Below are positions 696 through 37,441 of a DNA stretch of 64,000 bases, piece after piece (positions within the stretch are counted from its first letter, which is position 1; each line of letters starts with the position of its first letter). The notes beneath the pieces were generated by a model. The model did not search any database. It was not told where the DNA came from and worked only from the letters and a program-made list of their open reading frames with translations. Origin of the DNA: a virus. The DNA is taken from positions 1 to 64,000 of the IMG/VR virus record IMGVR_UViG_3300028800_000004, one strand, 5' to 3'. The position numbers and the translations under genes were made by a program.

Positions 696-767
696 TGGCT
701 GGGGCGGCAGGAATTGAACCTACGCCTTAGGTCTTTAGGACCTACGAACTATTTATTCTACGCCCCA
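696..767 (-). tRNA. tRNA-like, anticodon undetermined (loop CCUAAAG, C33)
   Basis: Acceptor TGGGGCG/CGCCCCA, T arm GTAGG-TTCAATT-CCTGC, CCA encoded. D arm is reduced (GAA/TTC) and anticodon arm TAGGT-CCTAAAG-ACCTA lacks U33. Confidence 0.4.
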
Positions 768-771
768 ATGG

Positions 772-843
772 AGCGCGGAGTGGGACTCGAACCCACGACA
801 AGCCGGAGTAGAATCGGCTGCTCTACCACTGAGCTACCCGCGC
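772..843 (-). tRNA. suppressor-type tRNA, anticodon CUA (reads UAG)
   Basis: 72-nt canonical cloverleaf: GCGCGGG TA GCTC-AGTGGTA-GAGC A GCCGA-TTCTACT-CCGGC TTGTC GTGGG-TTCGAGT-CCCAC TCCGCGC. Loop UU-CUA-CU. A31-C39 mismatch and C37 are unusual. Confidence 0.6.
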
Positions 844-20606: not shown

Positions 20607-20883
20607 GAAGGAGAGTCTGGGTGATGTACCCGGAATCAAGGACGAAATTCCTTTGGGGACTGTATACCAAGTGGACCCAACCAGAATGTCCATCCACTTC
20701 CTGCAAAACAAGAAAAGTGGGAAAATAACCCCGGTTCCTTCTATTTGGGCGGACCCCGGAGACGGAGCAAGAGCCGGGTGGCTTCCATTAGAGTTTCTGA
20801 AAATGGAGCCTACCACCGAAGAAGAAATCATGCTGGCGATGGAAGACGGTGTTGAAGACTTTTCACCCAAATACATGAACTAG
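20587..20883 (+). CDS. GW(F/L)P small-protein family (copy 3)
   Basis: MKATLIKKESLGDVPG...PLGTVYQVD...RAGWLPLEFLKMEP. Confidence 0.6.
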   Translation: MKATLIKKESLGDVPGIKDEIPLGTVYQVDPTRMSIHFLQNKKSGKITPVPSIWADPGDGARAGWLPLEFLKMEPTTEEEIMLAMEDGVEDFSPKYMN

Positions 20884-22357: not shown

Positions 22358-22431
22358 GGGTCATTAGCTCAATGCAGAGCAACGCCCTTTTAAGGCGGAG
22401 GTTCTAGGTTCAAACCCCAGATGACCCACCA
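22358..22431 (+). tRNA. tRNA-Lys (UUU)
   Basis: GGGTCAT/ATGACCC acceptor, anticodon arm ACGCC-CTTTTAA-GGCGG, T loop TTCAAAC, CCA encoded. Confidence 0.75.
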
Positions 22432-22433
22432 CC

Positions 22434-22508
22434 GGGGCTATAGCTCAATGGCAGAGCAGGGGACTCATAATCCCTTGGTTCTAGGTTCGAGTCCTAGTGG
22501 CCCCACCA
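22434..22508 (+). tRNA. tRNA-Met (CAU; elongator-type or Ile2)
   Basis: GGGGCTA/TGGCCCC acceptor, GGGGA-CTCATAA-TCCCT, CTAGG-TTCGAGT-CCTAG, CCA encoded. The G1-C72 pair argues against an initiator. Confidence 0.85.
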
Positions 22509-30102: not shown

Positions 30103-31244
30103 TGAAGGCAATCCTGCTTCAGGGTATGGCGTTCGGCGACGAGAGCAAAGGCGCGACAGTCGATGCTCTTTGTCGTAAGTTCCCTGTGGATCAGATAGTT
30201 CGGTATAATGGCGGTCCACAGACGGCCCATAACGTAGTAACACCACAAGGAGTACATCACACTTTCAGCCAGTTCGGGTCTGGAATGCTAGCTAACTCTA
30301 CTGTTAAGACACACTTATCTCGTTTCATGTTGATTAACCCGTTTAGTATGATGAGGGAAGCCGCCGCGTTGCCTACCTATACTCCGGTCTGGAACCGAGT
30401 TACCATAGACAGACAGTGCGTAGTCATCACTCCAATGCACAAAAGGCTTAATCAGTTAAGAGAGAAGGCAAGACGGGAAGGTGCCCACGGAAGTTGTGGG
30501 GTCGGTGTAGGGGTTGCCAGAGAACTCAGCCTGAGGTATGGTGATAGAGTGTTGTTAGTGGAAGACTTCGCGGACGAAAACAGAATCCACATGAAGCTAT
30601 TGTTCATGTTCTCGCAGTTAGGTTTCGAGATAGACAGGCTACAGAGAGAACTGAAGATTCCGGATATGGACTTTGATTTCGAGCACATGGCCCGTGCTTA
30701 CAAAGATTTCGGAAGTTACGCAAAAGTCGTTGACAAACTGGAGCCGAGTGACTTAATGTTGTTTGAAGGCGCTCAGGGCGTCCTGTTGGATGAGCGGAAG
30801 GAATTCCTGCCACACAACACTTGGACAAACTGCACCTTCGGAAACGCAGACAACCTCTTGTCAGAAGTCGGATGCAGTGATAGATTAAGGATTGGGTGCT
30901 TCAGATCGTACTTCACGAGGCACGGCCACGGGCCATTCCCAACGGAAGACGTGGACTTGACAAAATCCTTTAAGGAAGCGCATAATGGAACCGGAGAGTT
31001 TCAGGGTGCTTTTAGGTGTGGTAAATTTGATTTTGATTTAGCCAAAAAAGCACTTGACATTGTTGGCGGTTTGGATTATCTTTCTATTAGTCACTTGGAT
31101 CGGGCCTCGTTAGAAGTGGGCGATGAAATTTCAAGCACTCTAGGAGTTCCGGTAGGAGTCTGGGCCACGGGTCCCACATCAAACCACCGTGGTTTTAACT
31201 GTGAGTTGATCGACAGACTTGACAAGGTTTTGGAAACGTGTTAA
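30102..31244 (+). CDS. adenylosuccinate synthetase family protein, short form (PurA/PurZ-like)
   Basis: FGDESKG, RYNGGPQTAHN, GSCGVGVG, FEGAQGVLLD and TRHGHGPFPTE align with PurA WGDEGKG, RYQGGHNAGH, GTTGRGIG, FEGAQGTLLD and TRVGAGPFPTE. 380 aa versus about 430 for cellular PurA. Confidence 0.85.
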   Translation: MKAILLQGMAFGDESKGATVDALCRKFPVDQIVRYNGGPQTAHNVVTPQGVHHTFSQFGSGMLANSTVKTHLSRFMLINPFSMMREAAALPTYTPVWNRVTIDRQCVVITPMHKRLNQLREKARREGAHGSCGVGVGVARELSLRYGDRVLLVEDFADENRIHMKLLFMFSQLGFEIDRLQRELKIPDMDFDFEHMARAYKDFGSYAKVVDKLEPSDLMLFEGAQGVLLDERKEFLPHNTWTNCTFGNADNLLSEVGCSDRLRIGCFRSYFTRHGHGPFPTEDVDLTKSFKEAHNGTGEFQGAFRCGKFDFDLAKKALDIVGGLDYLSISHLDRASLEVGDEISSTLGVPVGVWATGPTSNHRGFNCELIDRLDKVLETC

Positions 31245-31252
31245 AATGGATT

Positions 31253-31333
31253 TGGGAATAGCGTTAGAAACAGTTACTTCTCATGCTTAATGAATTGCCG
31301 AAAGGCAGTCTCTGTTTCGCTTGTTCTTTCCCA
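31253..31333 (+). ncRNA. Y RNA-like ncRNA 1
   Basis: TGGGAA-TAGCGTTA-GAAACAG-[insert with TGCC-GAAA-GGCA hairpin]-CTGTTTC-GCTTGTTCT-TTCCCA. Both helices are fully complementary. Confidence 0.6.
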
Positions 31334-31343
31334 TATTTGAAGT

Positions 31344-31452
31344 TCTAGGTAGTGTAGATACAGTTACTTCGGTTAAAGTAGCTTCGGCTATGAGAGGTTT
31401 CGACGCCTCACCTTCTTTCGAGAAGGGTTACTGTGTCGCTTGTGCTCCTAGA
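31344..31452 (+). ncRNA. Y RNA-like ncRNA 2
   Basis: TCTAGG-TAGTGTA-GATACAG-[three-hairpin insert]-CTGTGTC-GCTTGTGCT-CCTAGA. Confidence 0.6.
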
Positions 31453-31463
31453 TGTTTTAAGGT

Positions 31464-31529
31464 TCTAGGTAGTGAAGACCACGGTTACTTCTTTGGTGAT
31501 AAACACCGTATGTCGCTTATTCTCCTAGA
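31464..31529 (+). ncRNA. Y RNA-like ncRNA 3 (minimal)
   Basis: TCTAGG-TAGTGAA-GACCACGG-[GGTG-ATAAA-CACC]-CCGTATGTC-GCTTATTCT-CCTAGA. Confidence 0.55.
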
Positions 31530-31758
31530 TAAGATTAGCCTAGTTCGCAAGAGCGCGAGTCGGCAAACCCCCGGGAACCCTTGATTTCGAATATATAGGG
31601 GCAACAAGGCAATGGTATGCGACAGTGGCTAAAACAGGGGCATTATACGGGTAGCTCCCGTGCCCCGAAGGTTGTAGGGTGGCAGAGAGTATTAGAATTG
31701 CGGGTCCTGTTACGGACTCAACGCTGGCGACGAATCTCCAGCCCCTACTAAAATTCAG

Positions 31759-31887
31759 TAGCAGTAGTGTTGAAACAATTCCTTCTTCCAAACCGTAGGT
31801 CATGGGTTCGAATCCCATCTATCAGGGTTTCGATAGTAGCTCAGTTGGTAGAGCAACAGTACAAGGTGTTTCGCTCGTTCTCTGCTA
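31759..31887 (+). ncRNA. Y RNA-like ncRNA 4 with tRNA-mimic module (YrlA-like)
   Basis: TAGCAG-TAGTGTT-GAAACA...TGTTTC-GCTCGTTCT-CTGCTA arms. Insert holds T arm ATGGG-TTCGAAT-CCCAT, loop-closed acceptor CTATC/GATAG, and D arm GCTC-AGTTGGTA-GAGC. Confidence 0.65.
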
Positions 31888-32013
31888 TAATCTGGTAACG
31901 GGTTTCACCGGTCGTGGCGGAGTCGTTAAAGAGAACAAAAACGGGAATGACTCTAACCGGTAAAGTGACCACGAATTTGCTTGCCGCCTAGAGCGTGATT
32001 ATGTTGCCAATTT

Positions 32014-32147
32014 TTTAGGTATAGTGTTAGATACAGTTACTTCAATGCTAATGAAGAAACGTCGGTTCGAATCCGACTCCCGGTGTGTGCCGGGATCGTC
32101 TAGGGGTTAGGACGCTAAAATATCTGTGTCGCTTGTTCTTACCTAAG
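32014..32147 (+). ncRNA. Y RNA-like ncRNA 5 with tRNA-mimic module (YrlA-like)
   Basis: TTTAGG...GATACAG / CTGTGTC...CCTAAG arms. Insert holds CTTCA-ATGCTAA-TGAAG, T arm GTCGG-TTCGAAT-CCGAC, loop-closed acceptor TCCCGGT/GCCGGGA, and D arm GTCT-AGGGGTTA-GGAC. Confidence 0.65.
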
Positions 32148-32339
32148 TTCTAAGAAATATGAGAATAACCCAGTGTTGTTTAGCATTTACGTCGGCTGTG
32201 GCGTTAGTAGTTGCCGCAATAGCGTCCAAACCACAAGGACTATCGAGTCCTTTAGAAGCATTAGGATTCTTGGTTTTGCTTGGAAACGTGGCGATACAAG
32301 TTTTTGGCGTCGTCATCGCAGTACACGAACTGGAGTAGT

Positions 32340-32699
32340 ATGGGTATAAAAGACCTACTTGAAAATGAAATGAAGGCCAGCCACGAGTTTTCTAAAAGTA
32401 ACTTTGGTGCTCAGGTGGGAGCGGCATACCCAGAGTTAGTAAAAGAAGTTTCTTCTAGCGATCCCGTATGCGCGACGTTGATGGTCGAATTGTGTATTGC
32501 TGGCATTACTGGAAAACAGGTAGCGGACAGTCTTAAGAAGCATAATGACTCAAAGGATTTACAGAAAGCTATCCTTGAGAATCTTCCCTCGTTTAACGGG
32601 CAGTTGTCCATGCTATACTGGGGTATCAACATAGGGCGTAAACTGGAAAAAGAAAGCCTCGAAGTTAACAAGCTTGAGGAAATGTTTGGAGGGAAATGA
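32340..32699 (+). CDS. hypothetical protein upstream of the Ro60 gene
   Basis: 119 aa from the ATG 8 nt after GGAG. Its stop overlaps the TROVE start. Confidence 0.55.
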   Translation: MGIKDLLENEMKASHEFSKSNFGAQVGAAYPELVKEVSSSDPVCATLMVELCIAGITGKQVADSLKKHNDSKDLQKAILENLPSFNGQLSMLYWGINIGRKLEKESLEVNKLEEMFGGK

Positions 32700-34063
32700 A
32701 AACCAATACTGCAATTAAGACCCCCGCTCCGAAGACGCACGAAGGTGCCACGGCAGCGCGTATCAATCCTGAGCAACAGCTTCGTCGTGTTGTTCTAGCA
32801 TCCATGTTGTTTGAAGACACCTTCTATTTGGACGGAGTTAGCTCTGCCCAGATCGTTGAAGACTCGGTTCAGGAAGTTCTTAAGAAAAAGAATGGCCCTC
32901 AAATCGTGTCCGATCTGGCATACGAAACCCGTACTAACGGTAAACTGCGCCATATCCCGTTGTTCTTGGCCCTGACTCTTGTTAGAGCAGGCAACAAAAA
33001 TACCAAACTCGGCGAGGAATGCCGTGCCGTGGTTGCGGAAACGCTGACCAAGATCATCCAGCGTCCGGACGAACTGGCGGAGTTTTTAGCTCTGTACTGG
33101 AAGGACAAGAAAGTTCCTTTGTCCAATCAGGTTAAGAAAGGACTCGCTGCTGCGTTCCAAAAGTTTGACAGGTACTCTCTGTCGAAGTACGCGAACCGGG
33201 AAGGCTCTATCTCTCTGCGCGACGTGTTGTTCTTGGTACACCCGCGTCCTCTGAACTCCGATCAACAGGAGTTGTGGAACGAGTTGGCCGAGAAGAAATT
33301 GGTTGCTCCGGATACTTGGGAGTCGAATCTGTCTGCTGGTGCGGATAAGAAAGAGACTTTCATTCGTCTGATCGAAGAGAAGAAGCTGGGTGCTTTGGCA
33401 CTACTCCGCAACTTGCGTAACATGCAACAGGCGGGAGTCCCGGATGATACCATCCGCAAAGCTTTGTCCGAAATGAAGACCGAACGTGTTCTTCCTTTCC
33501 GGTATATCTCTGCCGCTAACTACGCTCCGCAACTGGAGCCTGAGTTGGAACAGGCCATGTATCGTAGCCTTAAGGATCACGAGAAGCTGTCCGGCAAGAC
33601 CGTTCTGTTGGTGGACAATTCTGGAAGCATGGGTTCTCCCGTTTCCGGAAGATCGCAAATCAGCAGAGCCGATGCCGCTCAAGCACTGGCAATGTTGGTC
33701 CGTGAGATCAGCGAAACCAGCGAAGTGATTGTGTTTGGTACGACGGCTGGAAGCATTCCTCCCCGTAGAGGATTTGCTCTCCGCGATGCTGTCAGACATA
33801 GCCAACACGGAGGCGGGACTAACACGGAAGTTGCTAAGAAACTAGCAGATAAAGTTGGATACGACAGACTCATCATCTTCACCGATGAACAGTCGCATCA
33901 GGCTCTCTCTGCTCCTAAGGAAGGCTCCAAGGCTTACGTCATCAATGTGGCCGCATACCAGAACGGAGTTGGGTATGGGAAGTGGGTTCATATTGACGGG
34001 TTCTCGGAAGCTGCGGTAGACTTTATCCAGCAGTATGAGAAAGAGAAAAATGAGCTTGCTTAA
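32696..34063 (+). CDS. rsr: Ro60/Rsr-type protein (TROVE domain + vWA)
   Basis: N-terminal helical TROVE-like region (MLFEDTFY..., LRHIPLFLALTL, LRNLRNM). C-terminal vWA with LLVDNSGSM, GGGTN, IIFTDEQSH. Y-like RNA genes lie adjacent. Confidence 0.8.
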   Translation: MKTNTAIKTPAPKTHEGATAARINPEQQLRRVVLASMLFEDTFYLDGVSSAQIVEDSVQEVLKKKNGPQIVSDLAYETRTNGKLRHIPLFLALTLVRAGNKNTKLGEECRAVVAETLTKIIQRPDELAEFLALYWKDKKVPLSNQVKKGLAAAFQKFDRYSLSKYANREGSISLRDVLFLVHPRPLNSDQQELWNELAEKKLVAPDTWESNLSAGADKKETFIRLIEEKKLGALALLRNLRNMQQAGVPDDTIRKALSEMKTERVLPFRYISAANYAPQLEPELEQAMYRSLKDHEKLSGKTVLLVDNSGSMGSPVSGRSQISRADAAQALAMLVREISETSEVIVFGTTAGSIPPRRGFALRDAVRHSQHGGGTNTEVAKKLADKVGYDRLIIFTDEQSHQALSAPKEGSKAYVINVAAYQNGVGYGKWVHIDGFSEAAVDFIQQYEKEKNELA

Positions 34064-35911: not shown

Positions 35912-36919
35912 ATGAAAAACATATATCGCTGTGAATTCGGAAGTCATCTGTACGGTACTAATACGGAGGCTTCCGATCACGATTTTAAGTCGATCCATAT
36001 CCCATCCTCGGAGCAGATTCTACTTCAGAGGGTTCAGGATAGTACCGGCCATGTCGTGAAGAGGGAAGAAGGGGATAGAAACACCAAGGACGATACTGAT
36101 GACGAAAGTTACTCCCTTCAGAGATATTTATCTCTTCTAGCCGAAGGGCAGACCGTAGCTATCGATATGTTGTTCGTCCCTAAACCTCTGATTACAAGTG
36201 AAATATGGGAAGAAATCGTTGCGAACAAGGACAGGCTGGTCACTAAGAAGTCTTATTCCTTCGTGGGGTATTGTCGCACTCAGGCCAATAAGTATGGTAT
36301 AAAGGGTAGTAGGGTGTCAGCGGCTAAAGAGGCTATGGACTTCTTCGAGGAGGCAATTACTTTCAAAGGGCCGTTGGCTAAAGTAGGTGACTTGGGTTTG
36401 TTCCCCGCTGGAGAACACTCTCACACGGTGGTCAAGGAAACCACTCCCGGAAAGTTTGAGACGTACTTCGAGTGCTGCAATCGTATGGTAGGATATAAGA
36501 ACACTCTCAAGGAAGCGCACCATATCTTTTCCCGCATCTACGAGGAGTACGGCAAGAGAGCCAAGCTGGCCGAGTCCAACAATGGGATCGACTGGAAGGC
36601 TTTGAGTCACGCAGTAAGGGTAGGACATGAGGCTTTGGCTTTGTTATCAACTGGCGAAATTTCTTTTCCGTTGTTTAACGCACCGCATTTACTTGATATT
36701 AAAAAGGGCAGACTCCCCTACAAGGAAGTTGCTCAAGAAATAGAAGAGTTGCTGGAGGACGTGGAAGCGGCCTCTAAAACATCCCCGCTCCGGAAAGAGC
36801 CGGACTACAAGTACATCGATGGGTTGGTAAGGAGAGTTTATGGTAGAGAAGTTTTTAACGATTACTGTTTGGACAGTACTTACCACAATGGCGTATGCTC
36901 TGTTGCAGGGGAGGTTTAA
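35912..36919 (+). CDS. nucleotidyltransferase-fold protein (RlaP/DUF4037-like)
   Basis: N-terminal GSHLYGTNTEASDHDF (GS..YG...SD.D pattern of pol-beta-type NTases). Confidence 0.55.
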   Translation: MKNIYRCEFGSHLYGTNTEASDHDFKSIHIPSSEQILLQRVQDSTGHVVKREEGDRNTKDDTDDESYSLQRYLSLLAEGQTVAIDMLFVPKPLITSEIWEEIVANKDRLVTKKSYSFVGYCRTQANKYGIKGSRVSAAKEAMDFFEEAITFKGPLAKVGDLGLFPAGEHSHTVVKETTPGKFETYFECCNRMVGYKNTLKEAHHIFSRIYEEYGKRAKLAESNNGIDWKALSHAVRVGHEALALLSTGEISFPLFNAPHLLDIKKGRLPYKEVAQEIEELLEDVEAASKTSPLRKEPDYKYIDGLVRRVYGREVFNDYCLDSTYHNGVCSVAGEV

Positions 36920-37264: not shown

Positions 37265-37347
37265 GGCCGCGTGGTGAAATCGGCAGACACACTTGCCTTA
37301 GGAGCAAGCGCGAAAGCATGGGGGTTCAAGTCCCTCCGTGGCCACCA
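37265..37347 (+). tRNA. tRNA-Leu (UAG)
   Basis: Class II tRNA: CTTGC-CTTAGGA-GCAAG, long variable arm, GGGGG-TTCAAGT-CCCTC, CCA encoded. Confidence 0.85.
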
Positions 37348-37349
37348 GT

Positions 37350-37441
37350 GCGCTAGTGGCGAAGCTGGTTGAAACGCATCGGACTTAAAATCCGACACTG
37401 ATAAGTTCACAACGGGGGTTCGAACCCCTCCTAGCGTACCA
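37350..37441 (+). tRNA. tRNA-Leu (UAA)
   Basis: Class II tRNA: TCGGA-CTTAAAA-TCCGA, 18-nt variable arm, GGGGG-TTCGAAC-CCCTC, CCA encoded. Confidence 0.85.

What the first reader, a model, noticed from the sequence alone, without database searches (positions are those of the whole stretch)
31785..32113. Two array members carry circular-permutation-like tRNA mimics (YrlA-type), one keeping a Gly(UCC)-type anticodon loop
Unit 4 reads ACCGT (31792-96), AGGTC, T arm ATGGG-TTCGAAT-CCCAT (31802-18), acceptor-like CTATC/GATAG closed by an 8-nt loop (31819-36), D arm GCTC-AGTTGGTA-GAGC (31839-54), then ACAGT (31856-60). ACAGT pairs back to ACCGT as an open anticodon stem that continues into the CCTT/AAGG and GAAACA/TGTTTC helices. 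The single-stranded 7-mer CTTCCAA (31785-91) at the junction is identical to a tRNA-Gly(UCC) anticodon loop. Unit 5 has the same order: T arm GTCGG-TTCGAAT-CCGAC, loop-closed acceptor TCCCGGT-GTGT-GCCGGGA, D arm GTCT-AGGGGTTA-GGAC. It also has a complete hairpin CTTCA-ATGCTAA-TGAAG (32040-56). A closed acceptor with the 5' and 3' ends leaving through the anticodon side matches the published tRNA-like domain of bacterial YrlA. The two modules derive from different tRNA types, which suggests they mimic distinct tRNAs.
Basis: partly seen in the sequence, partly recalled or inferred. Interest (0 to 1): 0.75.

Follow-up and report, generated by a model that had tools for sequence, protein, structure and literature searches.

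The report
Phage Y RNAs with tRNA-like modules
Two of five small RNA genes just upstream of a phage Ro60 gene contain rearranged tRNA look-alikes; this kind of RNA (YrlA-type Y RNA) is already known in bacteria and phages, so the find is real but largely ordinary.

Summary
The region is an array of five paralogous Y RNAs (31251-32146, + strand). It follows a promoter-like site and lies 550 nt upstream of a Ro60 (TROVE+vWA) gene.

Units 4 and 5 carry the YrlA gene order: T arm, loop-closed acceptor, U8-N9, D arm. In 59 relatives from phages and bacteria these helices are 98-100% paired with many compensatory changes, and the tertiary 15:48 pair covaries.

Unit 4 is the Salmonella type, where the Ro60-binding stem replaces the anticodon loop. 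Unit 5 is the type with a "V stem-loop". Covariation shows that hairpin is really a complete anticodon arm. It has a 7-nt loop (U33 in 42/42, R37 in 41/42). Nucleotides 27-28 come from the 3' segment, and the Ro60-binding stem enters between 28 and 29.

The "Gly(UCC) loop" claim for unit 4 is not supported. The 7-mer is absent from the nearest ortholog, the body is not Gly-like, and the match is near chance. The "different tRNA types" claim is partly supported, because unit 5 has a tRNA-Glu-type D arm.

Verdict: a divergent new member of a known kind, below Rfam's threshold. Interest is modest.

The parts
31219..31247 (+). Promoter-like site TTGACA-17 nt-TG-n-TAAAAT, directly upstream of unit 1. 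It is the likely start of a transcript covering the Y RNA array and possibly the Ro60 gene.
   Evidence: 11 of 12 hexamer matches with an extended -10 TG. No terminator-like site follows the array. This is a consensus match only; expression was not tested.
31251..31335 (+). Y RNA unit 1. It has a Ro60-binding stem (GGGAA/TTCCC and GAAACAG/CTGTTTC) and a small effector part, with no tRNA-like module.
   Evidence: shares the 5' arm ..ACAGTTACTTC and the 3' arm TGTTTCGCTTGTTCT with the other units.
31343..31455 (+). Y RNA unit 2. It has the same terminal stem, three short hairpins inside, and no tRNA-like module.
   Evidence: Models R1 and R2 give no hit here.
31464..31532 (+). Y RNA unit 3, a short hairpin-type Y RNA (YrlB-like).
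31760..31886 (+). Y RNA unit 4, a YrlA-like RNA of the Salmonella type (class A).

Terminal (Ro60-binding) stem:
- AGCAG 31760-64 pairs with CTGCT 31882-86
- conserved arms TAGTGTT and GCTCGTTCT
- GAAACA 31772-77 pairs with TGTTTC 31867-72
- CCTT 31781-84 pairs with AAGG 31863-66

tRNA-like module:
- unpaired linker CTTCCAA 31785-91
- anticodon-stem equivalent ACCGT 31792-96 with ACAGT 31856-60
- variable loop AGGTC 31797-801
- T arm 31802-18
- closed 5-bp acceptor 31819-36
- U8 A9 31837-38
- D arm 31839-54
- A26 31855
   Evidence: Rfam YrlA gives 37.5 bits, E = 2.4e-6. The leave-out model R2 gives 64.0 bits. The ortholog L156_a keeps the fold, and CCTT/AAGG becomes CTTC/GAAG. The class-A stem covaries in 16 relatives.
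32015..32146 (+). Y RNA unit 5, a YrlA-like RNA with a full anticodon arm (class B).

Terminal (Ro60-binding) stem:
- TTAGGTA pairs with TACCTAA
- conserved arms TAGTGTTA and GCTTGTTCT
- GATACAG 32030-36 pairs with CTGTGTC 32124-30

Anticodon arm:
- junction TTA 32037-39
- inner stem TCA 32042-44 with TGA 32052-54
- 7-nt loop AUGCUAA 32045-51
- outer pairs A42 G43 (32055-56) with C27 U28 (32115-16)

Rest of the tRNA-like module:
- variable loop AAAC 32057-60
- T arm 32061-77
- closed 7-bp acceptor 32078-95
- U8 C9 32096-97
- tRNA-Glu-type D arm 32098-113
- G26 32114
   Evidence: The MFE is this fold. Model R2 gives 38.0 bits. The Rfam tRNA model matches the anticodon arm plus T arm as a partial hit, 24.1 bits. 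The 27-28:42-43 pairs covary in relatives. The D arm matches tRNA-Glu.
32696..34063 (+). Ro60 (Rsr-like) gene with TROVE and Ro60-vWA domains. Its product is the presumed protein partner of the five Y RNAs.
   Evidence: Pfam TROVE E = 5.3e-16 and vWA_Ro60 E = 1.2e-7. 94 GenBank phage records encode relatives.

Best explanation
What it is:
- Units 4 and 5 are two paralogous Y RNAs of the YrlA class. They are encoded with three other Y RNAs in one array just upstream of the phage's Ro60 gene, on the same strand.
- The array is probably transcribed from the promoter-like site at 31219-31247 and then cut into single RNAs (inferred).
- In each RNA the 5' and 3' ends pair into a bulged stem that carries the conserved arms. 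This stem is the Ro60 docking site (inferred from homology).
- The interior folds into an L-shaped tRNA mimic: T arm, loop-closed acceptor stem, U8-N9 and D arm, with G18G19/T54-Psi55-C56 and the G15:C48 pair available.

The two architectures:
- In unit 4 the Ro60-binding stem continues from the anticodon stem and replaces the anticodon loop, as in the solved Salmonella YrlA structure.
- In unit 5 the Ro60-binding stem is inserted into the 5' strand of the anticodon stem between nt 28 and 29. A whole anticodon stem-loop is therefore retained.

How it most likely works (inferred from published YrlA work):
- This stabilises the RNA and tethers a tRNA-binding or RNA-decay partner (such as host PNPase) to the Ro60 ring for handling of structured or damaged RNA during infection.
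- Unit 5 has a 7-bp acceptor stem and is predicted to be an RNase P substrate, like Mycobacterium smegmatis YrlA. Unit 4 has only 5 bp and is not.
For: Shown here:
- Exact motifs and coordinates.
- The Ro60 gene lies 550 nt downstream on the same strand.
- Five units share conserved 5' and 3' arms, and their lower stems differ in a compensatory way.
- Rfam YrlA hits unit 4 at E = 2.4e-6.
- The leave-out covariance model gives 64.0 and 38.0 bits.
- In 59 relatives next to Ro60 genes of phages and bacteria, the T arm is 99.7% paired, the acceptor 97.8% and the D arm 100%. 14 of 16 pairs show double changes, 0 of 500 shuffles reach the observed values, and slid controls give 33-49% paired.
- The Levitt pair 15:48 is G:C in 40 relatives and A:U in 17 of 59.
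- The class-B anticodon stem pairs 27:43 (38/38) and 28:42 (37/38) are Watson-Crick at one offset only, with 0 of 10000 shuffles reaching this. On the CM-made alignment the same pairs hold in 52/59 and 55/59 with five pair types each.
- Loop statistics: U33 in 42/42, R37 in 41/42, A38 in 37/42, and 20 different triplets at positions 34-36.
- Orthologs of both units occur in the nearest relative, L156.

From the literature:
- YrlA RNAs lie within 4 kb of Ro60 on the same strand in 254 bacteria and 22 phages. They carry Psi55 and D, and M. smegmatis YrlA with a 7-bp acceptor is cut by RNase P and receives CCA (PMC4201824).
- The crystal structure shows the L-shape (bioRxiv 10.1101/312249).
- A phage Ro60 binds phage Y-like RNAs and host PNPase (PMC12135203).
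Against: - Neither unit reaches Rfam's YrlA gathering score (37.5 vs 69 bits for unit 4; no YrlA hit for unit 5).
- Unit 5 lacks the near-invariant YrlA D-arm sequence.
- The published 5' motif GNCGAAN0-1G is only approximated here (AGTGTTGAA and AGTGTTAGA).
- Unit 4's cloverleaf is not its MFE.
- By core score alone, unit 5 (38.0 bits) is not separable from a tandem tRNA-Lys/tRNA-Met junction in the same window (37.5 bits).
- There is no expression, Ro60-binding or modification data for this phage.
- The effector of any YrlA tRNA-like domain is still unknown, so the functional part is inference.
Confidence: 0.82

Rival explanations
1. The modules act mainly as whole-tRNA baits or decoys in phage-host conflict. 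They would present a tRNA body (for unit 5 including an anticodon loop) to host tRNA-directed defence enzymes such as anticodon nucleases, or to tRNA-modifying enzymes. Ro60 would serve as a scaffold or protector rather than in RNA quality control.
For: - Unit 5-type RNAs keep a full anticodon stem-loop with the U33/R37 signature.
- The phage and its relatives carry many tRNA genes around Ro60.
- An RlaP RNA-repair-associated nucleotidyltransferase lies 1.8 kb downstream.
- A published phage Ro60-Y RNP attenuates host PNPase (PMC12135203).
Against: - The loop triplet is not conserved between orthologs (GCU vs UGG) and takes 20 different values. This argues against targeting one anticodon-specific nuclease.
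- The same RNA type is common in free-living bacteria such as Bradyrhizobium and Terriglobia, where a phage-counter-defence role does not apply.
- There is no experimental link.
Confidence: 0.1
2. They are genuine circularly permuted or split tRNA genes. Processing by RNase P, 3' trimming and CCA addition would give a two-piece or rejoined tRNA that is charged and decodes.
For: - Re-permuting the pieces gives sequences that ARAGORN calls tRNA-Ser(GCU) and tRNA-Gly(UCC) (for unit 4 this holds by construction).
- Unit 5 has a 7-bp acceptor stem and a full anticodon arm.
- M. smegmatis YrlA is cut by RNase P and gains CCA in vivo (PMC4201824).
- GenBank annotators and ARAGORN call some relatives tRNAs.
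Against: - The conserved terminal arms and their position next to Ro60 are unexplained by a decoding tRNA.
- The break lies inside the anticodon stem.
- Unit 4 has a 5-bp acceptor and no closed anticodon loop.
- Unit 5 has a Ser-type triplet but no long variable arm, and a Glu-type D arm, so its identity elements conflict.
- The loop triplet drifts between orthologs.
- Bacteria have no bulge-helix-bulge splicing endonuclease (established knowledge).
Confidence: 0.04
3. They are decaying remnants of tandem tRNA genes (3' half of one gene plus 5' half of the next) with no present function.
For: - The core model scores a real tRNA-Lys/tRNA-Met junction (22395-22470) as high as unit 5.
Against: - The acceptor strands are joined by tight 4-8 nt loops rather than a trailer, spacer and leader.
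- No complete tRNA flanks either unit.
- The helices and a tertiary pair are maintained by compensatory changes across 59 loci.
- The units are framed by conserved Ro60-binding arms.
- Orthologs persist at 67% Ro60 identity.
Confidence: 0.03

Closest known systems
Salmonella Typhimurium YrlA (Rfam RF02553; crystal structure PDB 6CU1; Chen et al. 2014, Wang et al. 2018)
   Same: - It is encoded next to Ro60 (rsr) on the same strand.
- Its terminal stem binds Ro60.
- Its interior has the order T arm, closed acceptor-like hairpin, UA, D arm, with the tRNA tertiary pairs.
- The anticodon stem continues into the Ro60-binding stem and there is no anticodon loop. Unit 4 has exactly this layout and is the part hit by the Rfam model.
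   Different: - Unit 4 scores 37.5 bits against a gathering score of 69.
- Its acceptor has 5 bp (6 in Salmonella).
- Its 5' arm motif differs from GNCGAAN0-1G.
- It is phage-encoded in a five-unit array rather than in an rsr-yrlBA-rtcBA operon.
YrlA RNAs with a 'V stem-loop', such as Mycobacterium smegmatis YrlA (Chen et al. 2014)
   Same: - An extra hairpin lies between the conserved YUAY (here GTTAC) and the T arm.
- The 7-bp acceptor stem makes the M. smegmatis RNA an RNase P and CCA-adding-enzyme substrate. Unit 5 has both features.
   Different: - The paper labels the hairpin a variable arm. Here covariation places it as the anticodon arm, with nt 27-28 supplied by the 3' segment.
- Unit 5's D arm is tRNA-Glu-like instead of the near-invariant GUAGCUCA..GGUAGAGC.
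Y RNA arrays of published phages: Caulobacter phage CcrColossus, Xanthomonas phage 10KY502B and relatives, and Thermus phage phiLo Yrl1/Yrl2
   Same: - Several Y-like RNAs lie directly beside a phage Ro60 gene.
- 10KY502B has five units, three of them tRNA-like, including one with a Glu-type D arm.
- CcrColossus has at least three tRNA-like hits.
   Different: - There is no nucleotide similarity to the window, and Ro60 identity is 48% or less.
- In GenBank these units are unannotated or partly annotated as 68-nt tRNA-Thr or tRNA-Gln.
- The phiLo paper describes Yrl1/Yrl2 as stem-bulge-stem Y-like RNAs; the terms 'tRNA-like' and 'YrlA' do not occur in its main text.
Circularly permuted tRNA genes of Cyanidioschyzon merolae, and two-piece permuted tmRNA of alpha-proteobacteria
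   Same: The 3' part of the tRNA body is encoded upstream of the 5' part.
   Different: - Those genes are processed to free acceptor ends and function in translation.
- Here the acceptor is closed by a small loop and the open ends form a protein-binding stem.
- No bulge-helix-bulge motif or processing enzyme is implied.

Membership tests
YrlA-type Y RNA (Rfam RF02553; Chen et al. 2014) | Encoded within 4 kb of a Ro60/TROVE gene and on the same strand | tested here: met
   The Ro60 ORF is at 32696-34063 (+), with Pfam TROVE and vWA_Ro60 domains. Unit 4 ends 810 nt and unit 5 ends 550 nt upstream of its ATG.
YrlA-type Y RNA (Rfam RF02553; Chen et al. 2014) | The 5' and 3' ends pair into a stem that carries the Ro60-binding motif GNCGAAN0-1G on the 5' strand | tested here: inconclusive
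   The terminal stems are present, and their lower helices differ compensatorily among the five units. The motif reads AGTGTTGAA in unit 4 and AGTGTTAGA in unit 5. Relatives have GGTGAAG or GGCGAAG. It is a recognisable variant, not an exact match. Binding was not tested.
YrlA-type Y RNA (Rfam RF02553; Chen et al. 2014) | Interior order T arm, loop-closed acceptor-like stem, U8-N9, D arm, with the invariant tRNA nucleotides | tested here: met
   Both units have TTCGAAT T loops with a G53-C61 pair, U8, A14, and GG in the D loop. The helices are 98-100% paired with compensatory changes in 59 relatives.
YrlA-type Y RNA (Rfam RF02553; Chen et al. 2014) | Tertiary Levitt pair 15:48 maintained by covariation | tested here: met
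   The pair is G15:C48 in 40 relatives, A15:U48 in 17 and other in 2 of 59. Both window units have G15:C48.
YrlA-type Y RNA (Rfam RF02553; Chen et al. 2014) | Near-invariant D-arm and T-stem sequences (GUAGCUCA..GGUAGAGC) | tested here: met
   This holds for unit 4 only, which reads TAGCTCAGTTGGTAGAGC. Unit 5 does not meet it: it reads TCGTCTAGGGGTTAGGAC, a tRNA-Glu-type D arm.
YrlA-type Y RNA (Rfam RF02553; Chen et al. 2014) | Reaches the Rfam gathering score (69 bits) | tested here: not met
   Unit 4 scores 37.5 bits and unit 5 has no YrlA hit at E <= 10. Bacterial and phage relatives of this clade also score only 31-49 bits. The shortfall therefore reflects a divergent clade rather than these two units alone.
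YrlA-type Y RNA (Rfam RF02553; Chen et al. 2014) | Bound by Ro60 in vivo, and carries Psi55 and dihydrouridine | not testable with these tools
   This needs immunoprecipitation and modification mapping.
Canonical tRNA gene | Order acceptor-D-anticodon-T with open acceptor ends, detected by tRNA finders | tested here: not met
   ARAGORN and Rfam tRNA (gathering threshold) find no tRNA in 31250-32150. There is only a partial tRNA-model hit covering positions 6-65 for unit 5.
   CTTCCAA is an unpaired linker. The T-side half matches Trp, Arg, His and Asp tRNAs better than Gly(UCC). The ortholog L156_a lacks it. Linker length in class A varies from 0 to 8 nt. In its favour, 8 of 15 class-A linkers fit U33+R37 (my reading), and CTTCCAA is a true hairpin loop in L098 and L141. 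A relic is therefore not excluded.
Circularly permuted tRNA gene (Cyanidioschyzon type) | Processed through a circular or bulge-helix-bulge intermediate to a mature tRNA with free ends | not testable with these tools
   The permuted order is present, but the acceptor strands are joined by only 4-8 nt and the open ends form the conserved Ro60-binding stem. Transcript ends are unknown.

The most novel reading that the evidence does not exclude
Unit 5-type Y RNAs are complete, circularly permuted tRNAs rather than partial mimics. At least 38 relatives in phages and bacteria share this type. The hairpin published as a 'variable stem-loop' would be the anticodon arm, and the Ro60-binding stem would be spliced into the anticodon stem between nt 28 and 29.

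[quoted passage not shown] That RNP could bait or titrate enzymes that read anticodon loops or whole tRNAs, such as anticodon nucleases, modification enzymes or synthetases, during infection.

The structural half of this reading is well supported here (about 0.8). The functional half is speculation. The probability given is for both together.
Probability: 0.15. Interest if true: 0.7.

Novelty: new member of a known kind. Interest (0 to 1): 0.35.

Why it matters
It adds a divergent, unannotated phage example to the YrlA family and shows that current tools handle this clade poorly. The Rfam model misses it, and tRNA finders and GenBank records sometimes label parts of such RNAs as tRNAs.

The comparative data gathered here also sharpen the family's anatomy into two conserved ways of grafting a Ro60-binding stem onto a tRNA body. 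One of them keeps an intact anticodon arm. This bears on the proposed origin of YrlA from dimeric tRNA transcripts, and on the search for the still-unknown effector of the tRNA-like domain.

None of this changes the basic picture: Ro60 genes come with tRNA-like Y RNAs.

Tried and rejected
- Nucleotide search of the array against GenBank phages found no match. Close relatives had to be found through the Ro60 protein.
- The pattern scan TACTTC..GGTTCRANTCC in viral contigs returned many ordinary tRNAs. Hits had to be filtered with ARAGORN and by inspection.
- Scoring the core with a covariance model also picks up tandem tRNA junctions. Score alone was therefore rejected as a criterion.
- MFE folding as evidence for unit 4 was rejected, because the cloverleaf is 4.3 kcal/mol above the MFE.
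- Isotype assignment by similarity to 581 tRNAs gave a clear answer only for unit 5's D-arm half (tRNA-Glu). It gave nothing specific for the other three halves.
- The two non-coding spacers inside the array (31535-31759 and 31889-32014) have no Rfam hit at E <= 10 and no homolog in the 137 loci then held. Their folding z-scores are -0.8 and -1.8. No function can be assigned.
- Small ORFs overlapping the array on either strand have no Pfam match and were dismissed as chance ORFs.
- The supplementary tables of Chen et al. 2014 and the Sim et al. 2020 review were not available. I could not check whether the anticodon-arm reading of the V stem-loop has been published.
- The metagenome contig L155 is the same phage (99.95% identity), so it is uninformative for conservation.
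Full report
**Observation.**
- Unit 4 reads ACCGT, AGGTC, T arm ATGGG-TTCGAAT-CCCAT, closed hairpin CTATC-AGGGTTTC-GATAG, TA, D arm GCTC-AGTTGGTA-GAGC, A, ACAGT. The CCTT/AAGG and GAAACA/TGTTTC helices lie outside these, and CTTCCAA (31785-91) sits between them.
- Unit 5 reads CTTCA-ATGCTAA-TGAAG, AAAC, GTCGG-TTCGAAT-CCGAC, TCCCGGT-GTGT-GCCGGGA, TC, GTCT-AGGGGTTA-GGAC.
- ACCGT/ACAGT pairs at 4 of 5 positions.
- RNAfold reproduces the described fold of unit 5 as both MFE and centroid (-41.8 kcal/mol, z = -2.8).
- For unit 4 the cloverleaf-like fold is 4.3 kcal/mol above the MFE.
- ARAGORN and Rfam at gathering thresholds find no tRNA here.

- The ORF at 32696-34063 on the same strand is a Ro60 homolog (Pfam TROVE E = 5e-16, Ro60 vWA domain E = 1e-7).
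- Upstream of it, five units share a 5' arm (..TAGYGWWAGAWACAGTTACTTC) and a 3' arm (CTGTKTCGCTTGTTCT). Their outer helices differ compensatorily: GGGAA/TTCCC, CTAGG/CCTAG twice, AGCAG/CTGCT, TTAGGTA/TACCTAA.
- A strong promoter-like site, TTGACA-17-TGtTAAAAT, ends 4 nt before unit 1, and no terminator-like site follows the array.
- This is the anatomy of a Y RNA array next to its Ro60 gene.
- Other genes in the window show that it is a phage: a family A DNA polymerase, an integrase, a UvrD helicase, ParB and ten tRNAs. An RlaP RNA-repair-associated nucleotidyltransferase lies 1.8 kb downstream of Ro60.

**Family evidence.**
- Rfam's YrlA model, which is independent of anything built here, matches 31771-31876 end to end at 37.5 bits (E = 2.4e-6). 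That is below its gathering score of 69.
- Ro60 relatives from viral contigs, bacterial genomes and metagenomes carry arrays of the same Y RNA family beside Ro60.
- I built a covariance model of the T arm, closed acceptor and D arm core and searched all fetched loci.
- On the 59-sequence alignment the model produced, the T arm is 99.7% paired, the acceptor 97.8% and the D arm 100%. 14 of 16 pairs show changes on both sides, no shuffle of 500 reaches the observed values, and slid controls give 33-49% paired.
- The tertiary Levitt pair is G15:C48 in 40 sequences and A15:U48 in 17. This is evidence for the L-shaped fold and matches what Chen et al. reported (PMC4201824).
- A second model built without the window scores unit 4 at 64.0 bits and unit 5 at 38.0 bits.
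- Caveat: the junction of the tandem tRNA-Lys and tRNA-Met genes at 22395-22470 scores 37.5 bits. The core score alone therefore does not separate unit 5 from a tRNA-tRNA junction. What separates it is the closed tetraloop, the absence of full tRNAs on either side, the Y arms and the position next to Ro60.

**Two architectures.** Relatives fall into two classes.

Class A:
- Members include unit 4 and 15 others.
- The 5 nt before the variable loop pair with the 5 nt after position 26. Examples are ACCGT/ACAGT, GCCGC/GCAGC, GCTTT/GAAGC, TCCGA/TCGGA and CCGGA/TCCGG.
- The Ro60-binding stem therefore takes the place of the anticodon loop.
- This is the layout of the solved Salmonella YrlA, which "lacks the anticodon loop" (bioRxiv 10.1101/312249).

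Class B:
- Members include unit 5 and about 40 others.
- A local hairpin with a 7-nt loop is followed directly by the variable loop and the T arm. Chen et al. called this the V stem-loop and noted a conserved YUAY before it, which here is the GTTAC of GTTACTTC.
- The loop has U at position 33 in 42 of 42, a purine at 37 in 41 of 42, and A at 38 in 37 of 42. There are 20 different triplets at 34-36. That is the anticodon-loop signature, not that of a class II variable arm.
- I fixed the register from the three inner pairs and U33 only. The last two nucleotides of the hairpin's 3' strand then pair with the two nucleotides that follow D stem+1. They do not pair with the CT/TT of the conserved motif.
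- 27:43 is Watson-Crick in 38 of 38 and 28:42 in 37 of 38. The combinations are AG/CT, CG/CG, GG/CC, TG/CA, CC/GG and AA/TT. Other offsets give at most 7 of 38, and none of 10000 shuffles reaches the observed value. The 5' competitor pairs in only 15 and 19 of 38.
- On the model-made alignment, which has no pairs in that region and so is not fitted to them, the same two pairs hold in 52 and 55 of 59 with five pair types each. The next two inner pairs hold only in class A members.
- In unit 5 the pairs are G32056-C32115 and A32055-T32116.
- Class B RNAs are therefore complete tRNA cloverleaves in which the Ro60-binding stem enters the 5' strand of the anticodon stem between nt 28 and 29.

**The Gly(UCC) claim.**
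- CTTCCAA in unit 4 is an unpaired linker between CCTT/AAGG and ACCGT/ACAGT.
- In the nearest distinct relative (L156, Ro60 67% identical) the ortholog of unit 4 keeps the arms, T arm, acceptor and D arm, and changes CCTT/AAGG to CTTC/GAAG. In place of TTCCAAACCGTAGGTC it has TTTGA-----TAATCAT.
- Class A linkers after the conserved CTTC range from 0 to 8 nt.
- Among 581 ARAGORN-predicted tRNAs from all fetched loci, the T-side half of unit 4 matches Trp, Arg, His, Asp and Lys tRNAs better than Gly(UCC).
- The generic pattern Y-U-NNN-R fits one random heptamer in 16.
- Two points favour a relic. By my reading, 8 of 15 class A linkers have U33 and R37 in the last seven positions. CTTCCAA is also the loop of a true hairpin in two class B relatives, L098 and L141.
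- I conclude that the loop identity is unsupported as a conserved or functional feature, though a relic of an ancestral anticodon loop is not excluded.

**The "different tRNA types" claim.**
- Unit 4 has the standard YrlA D arm.
- The acceptor-5'/UC/D-arm half of unit 5 finds tRNA-Glu in 8 of its 10 best matches (best score 32, against a mean of 12.6 and sd of 3.3).
- This Glu-type D arm recurs in its ortholog L156_c, in L098 and in Xanthomonas phage 10KY502B.
- The loop triplet is GCU in unit 5 but UGG in L156_c. The pair 42-43/27-28 changes from AG/CT to CG/CG.
- The two units are therefore old, distinct paralog lineages. The shape of the anticodon loop, rather than a particular anticodon, seems to be what is kept.

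**Mechanism.**
- Shown here: the anatomy and its conservation.
- Inferred from published work: the terminal stem docks on Ro60. [quoted passage not shown] It stabilises the RNA and tethers a partner to Ro60.
- A phage Ro60 with its Y-like RNAs binds host PNPase and damps its activity (PMC12135203).
- Unit 5, with a 7-bp acceptor stem, is predicted to be cut by RNase P 5' of G32089. Unit 4, with 5 bp, is not.
- The true effector of any YrlA tRNA-like domain is unknown, so the functional statement is the weakest link.

**Comparison and novelty.**
- YrlA RNAs near Ro60 were reported in 254 bacteria and 22 phages, with several per locus in some (355 RNAs in all).
- Published phage genomes already contain similar arrays. 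Xanthomonas phage 10KY502B has five units upstream of Ro60, three of them tRNA-like, and one is annotated as a 68-nt tRNA-Thr. CcrColossus has at least three hits and a 68-nt "tRNA-Gln" annotation.
- Bacterial relatives such as Bradyrhizobium carry two or three tRNA-like members per locus.
- The whole clade scores only 31-49 bits with Rfam's YrlA model.
- The window units are therefore new, divergent members of a known kind.
- The reading of the V stem-loop as a true anticodon arm with a defined insertion point may be new. I could not check the reviews or supplements that might already say so.

**Rivals.**
- Decayed tandem tRNA genes are excluded by the compensatory conservation, the tight closing loops and the Ro60-binding arms.
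- Functional permuted tRNAs are unlikely because of the conflicting identity elements, the break inside the anticodon stem and the drifting triplet.
- A decoy or bait role is compatible with the structure but has no direct support. It would not explain the same RNAs in free-living bacteria.

Noticed in passing
window 31535-31759 and 31889-32014: Two non-coding spacers of about 225 and 126 nt sit inside the Y RNA array, between units 3/4 and 4/5. They have no Y arms, no Rfam hit at E <= 10 and no homolog in the 137 loci then held. Their folding z-scores are -0.8 and -1.8. Their role is unknown.
   Followed up: partly
window 31251-31532 (units 1-3); L156 1330-1392: Short Y RNAs without a tRNA body still carry the conserved GTTACTTC. 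Often they also have a lone hairpin with an anticodon-like 7-nt loop, for example CTTGTAA in L156 unit b and an ATGCTTAA variant in window unit 1. The hairpin may therefore be a module in its own right.
   Followed up: partly
L008 / L012 1081-1356: A related phage contig encodes a bacterial class A RNase P RNA (126.8 bits) at the head of a large tRNA array next to its Ro60 gene. Y RNA-like units are interspersed among the tRNAs at 1515-1622 and 2501-2574.
   Followed up: no
L236 (Xanthomonas phage 10KY502B, record 20624-20691); L235 (CcrColossus, record 109217-109284): 68-nt 'tRNA-Thr' and 'tRNA-Gln' annotations just upstream of phage Ro60 genes. In 10KY502B the annotated tRNA-Thr lies inside the last, YrlA-like unit (anticodon-like arm plus T arm). 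In CcrColossus the annotated tRNA-Gln overlaps a hit of my core model, but I did not read that sequence. ARAGORN makes the same kind of call for L001, L013, L090 and L099.
   Followed up: partly
window 769-843 (-) and 699-767 (-): ARAGORN calls a tRNA with anticodon CUA (labelled Pyl), which is a possible amber suppressor tRNA. Rfam also finds a tRNA at 699-767 that ARAGORN did not report.
   Followed up: no
window 35912-36919 (+): An RlaP-family protein (RNA repair pathway Pol-beta nucleotidyltransferase, E = 1e-15) lies 1.8 kb downstream of Ro60, followed by two tRNA-Leu genes at 37265-37441. No RtcB or RtcA was seen among the ORFs scanned.
   Followed up: partly
L155 (metagenome contig Ga0265323_10025928): A 2213-nt metagenome contig is 99.95% identical to window 31591-33803. 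The same phage is therefore present in that sample.
   Followed up: yes
window 22395-22470 (+): The junction of the adjacent tRNA-Lys and tRNA-Met genes (5-nt spacer) scores 37.5 bits with the YrlA-core model. This is a live example of the T arm / acceptor / D arm arrangement from which YrlA has been proposed to arise.
   Followed up: partly
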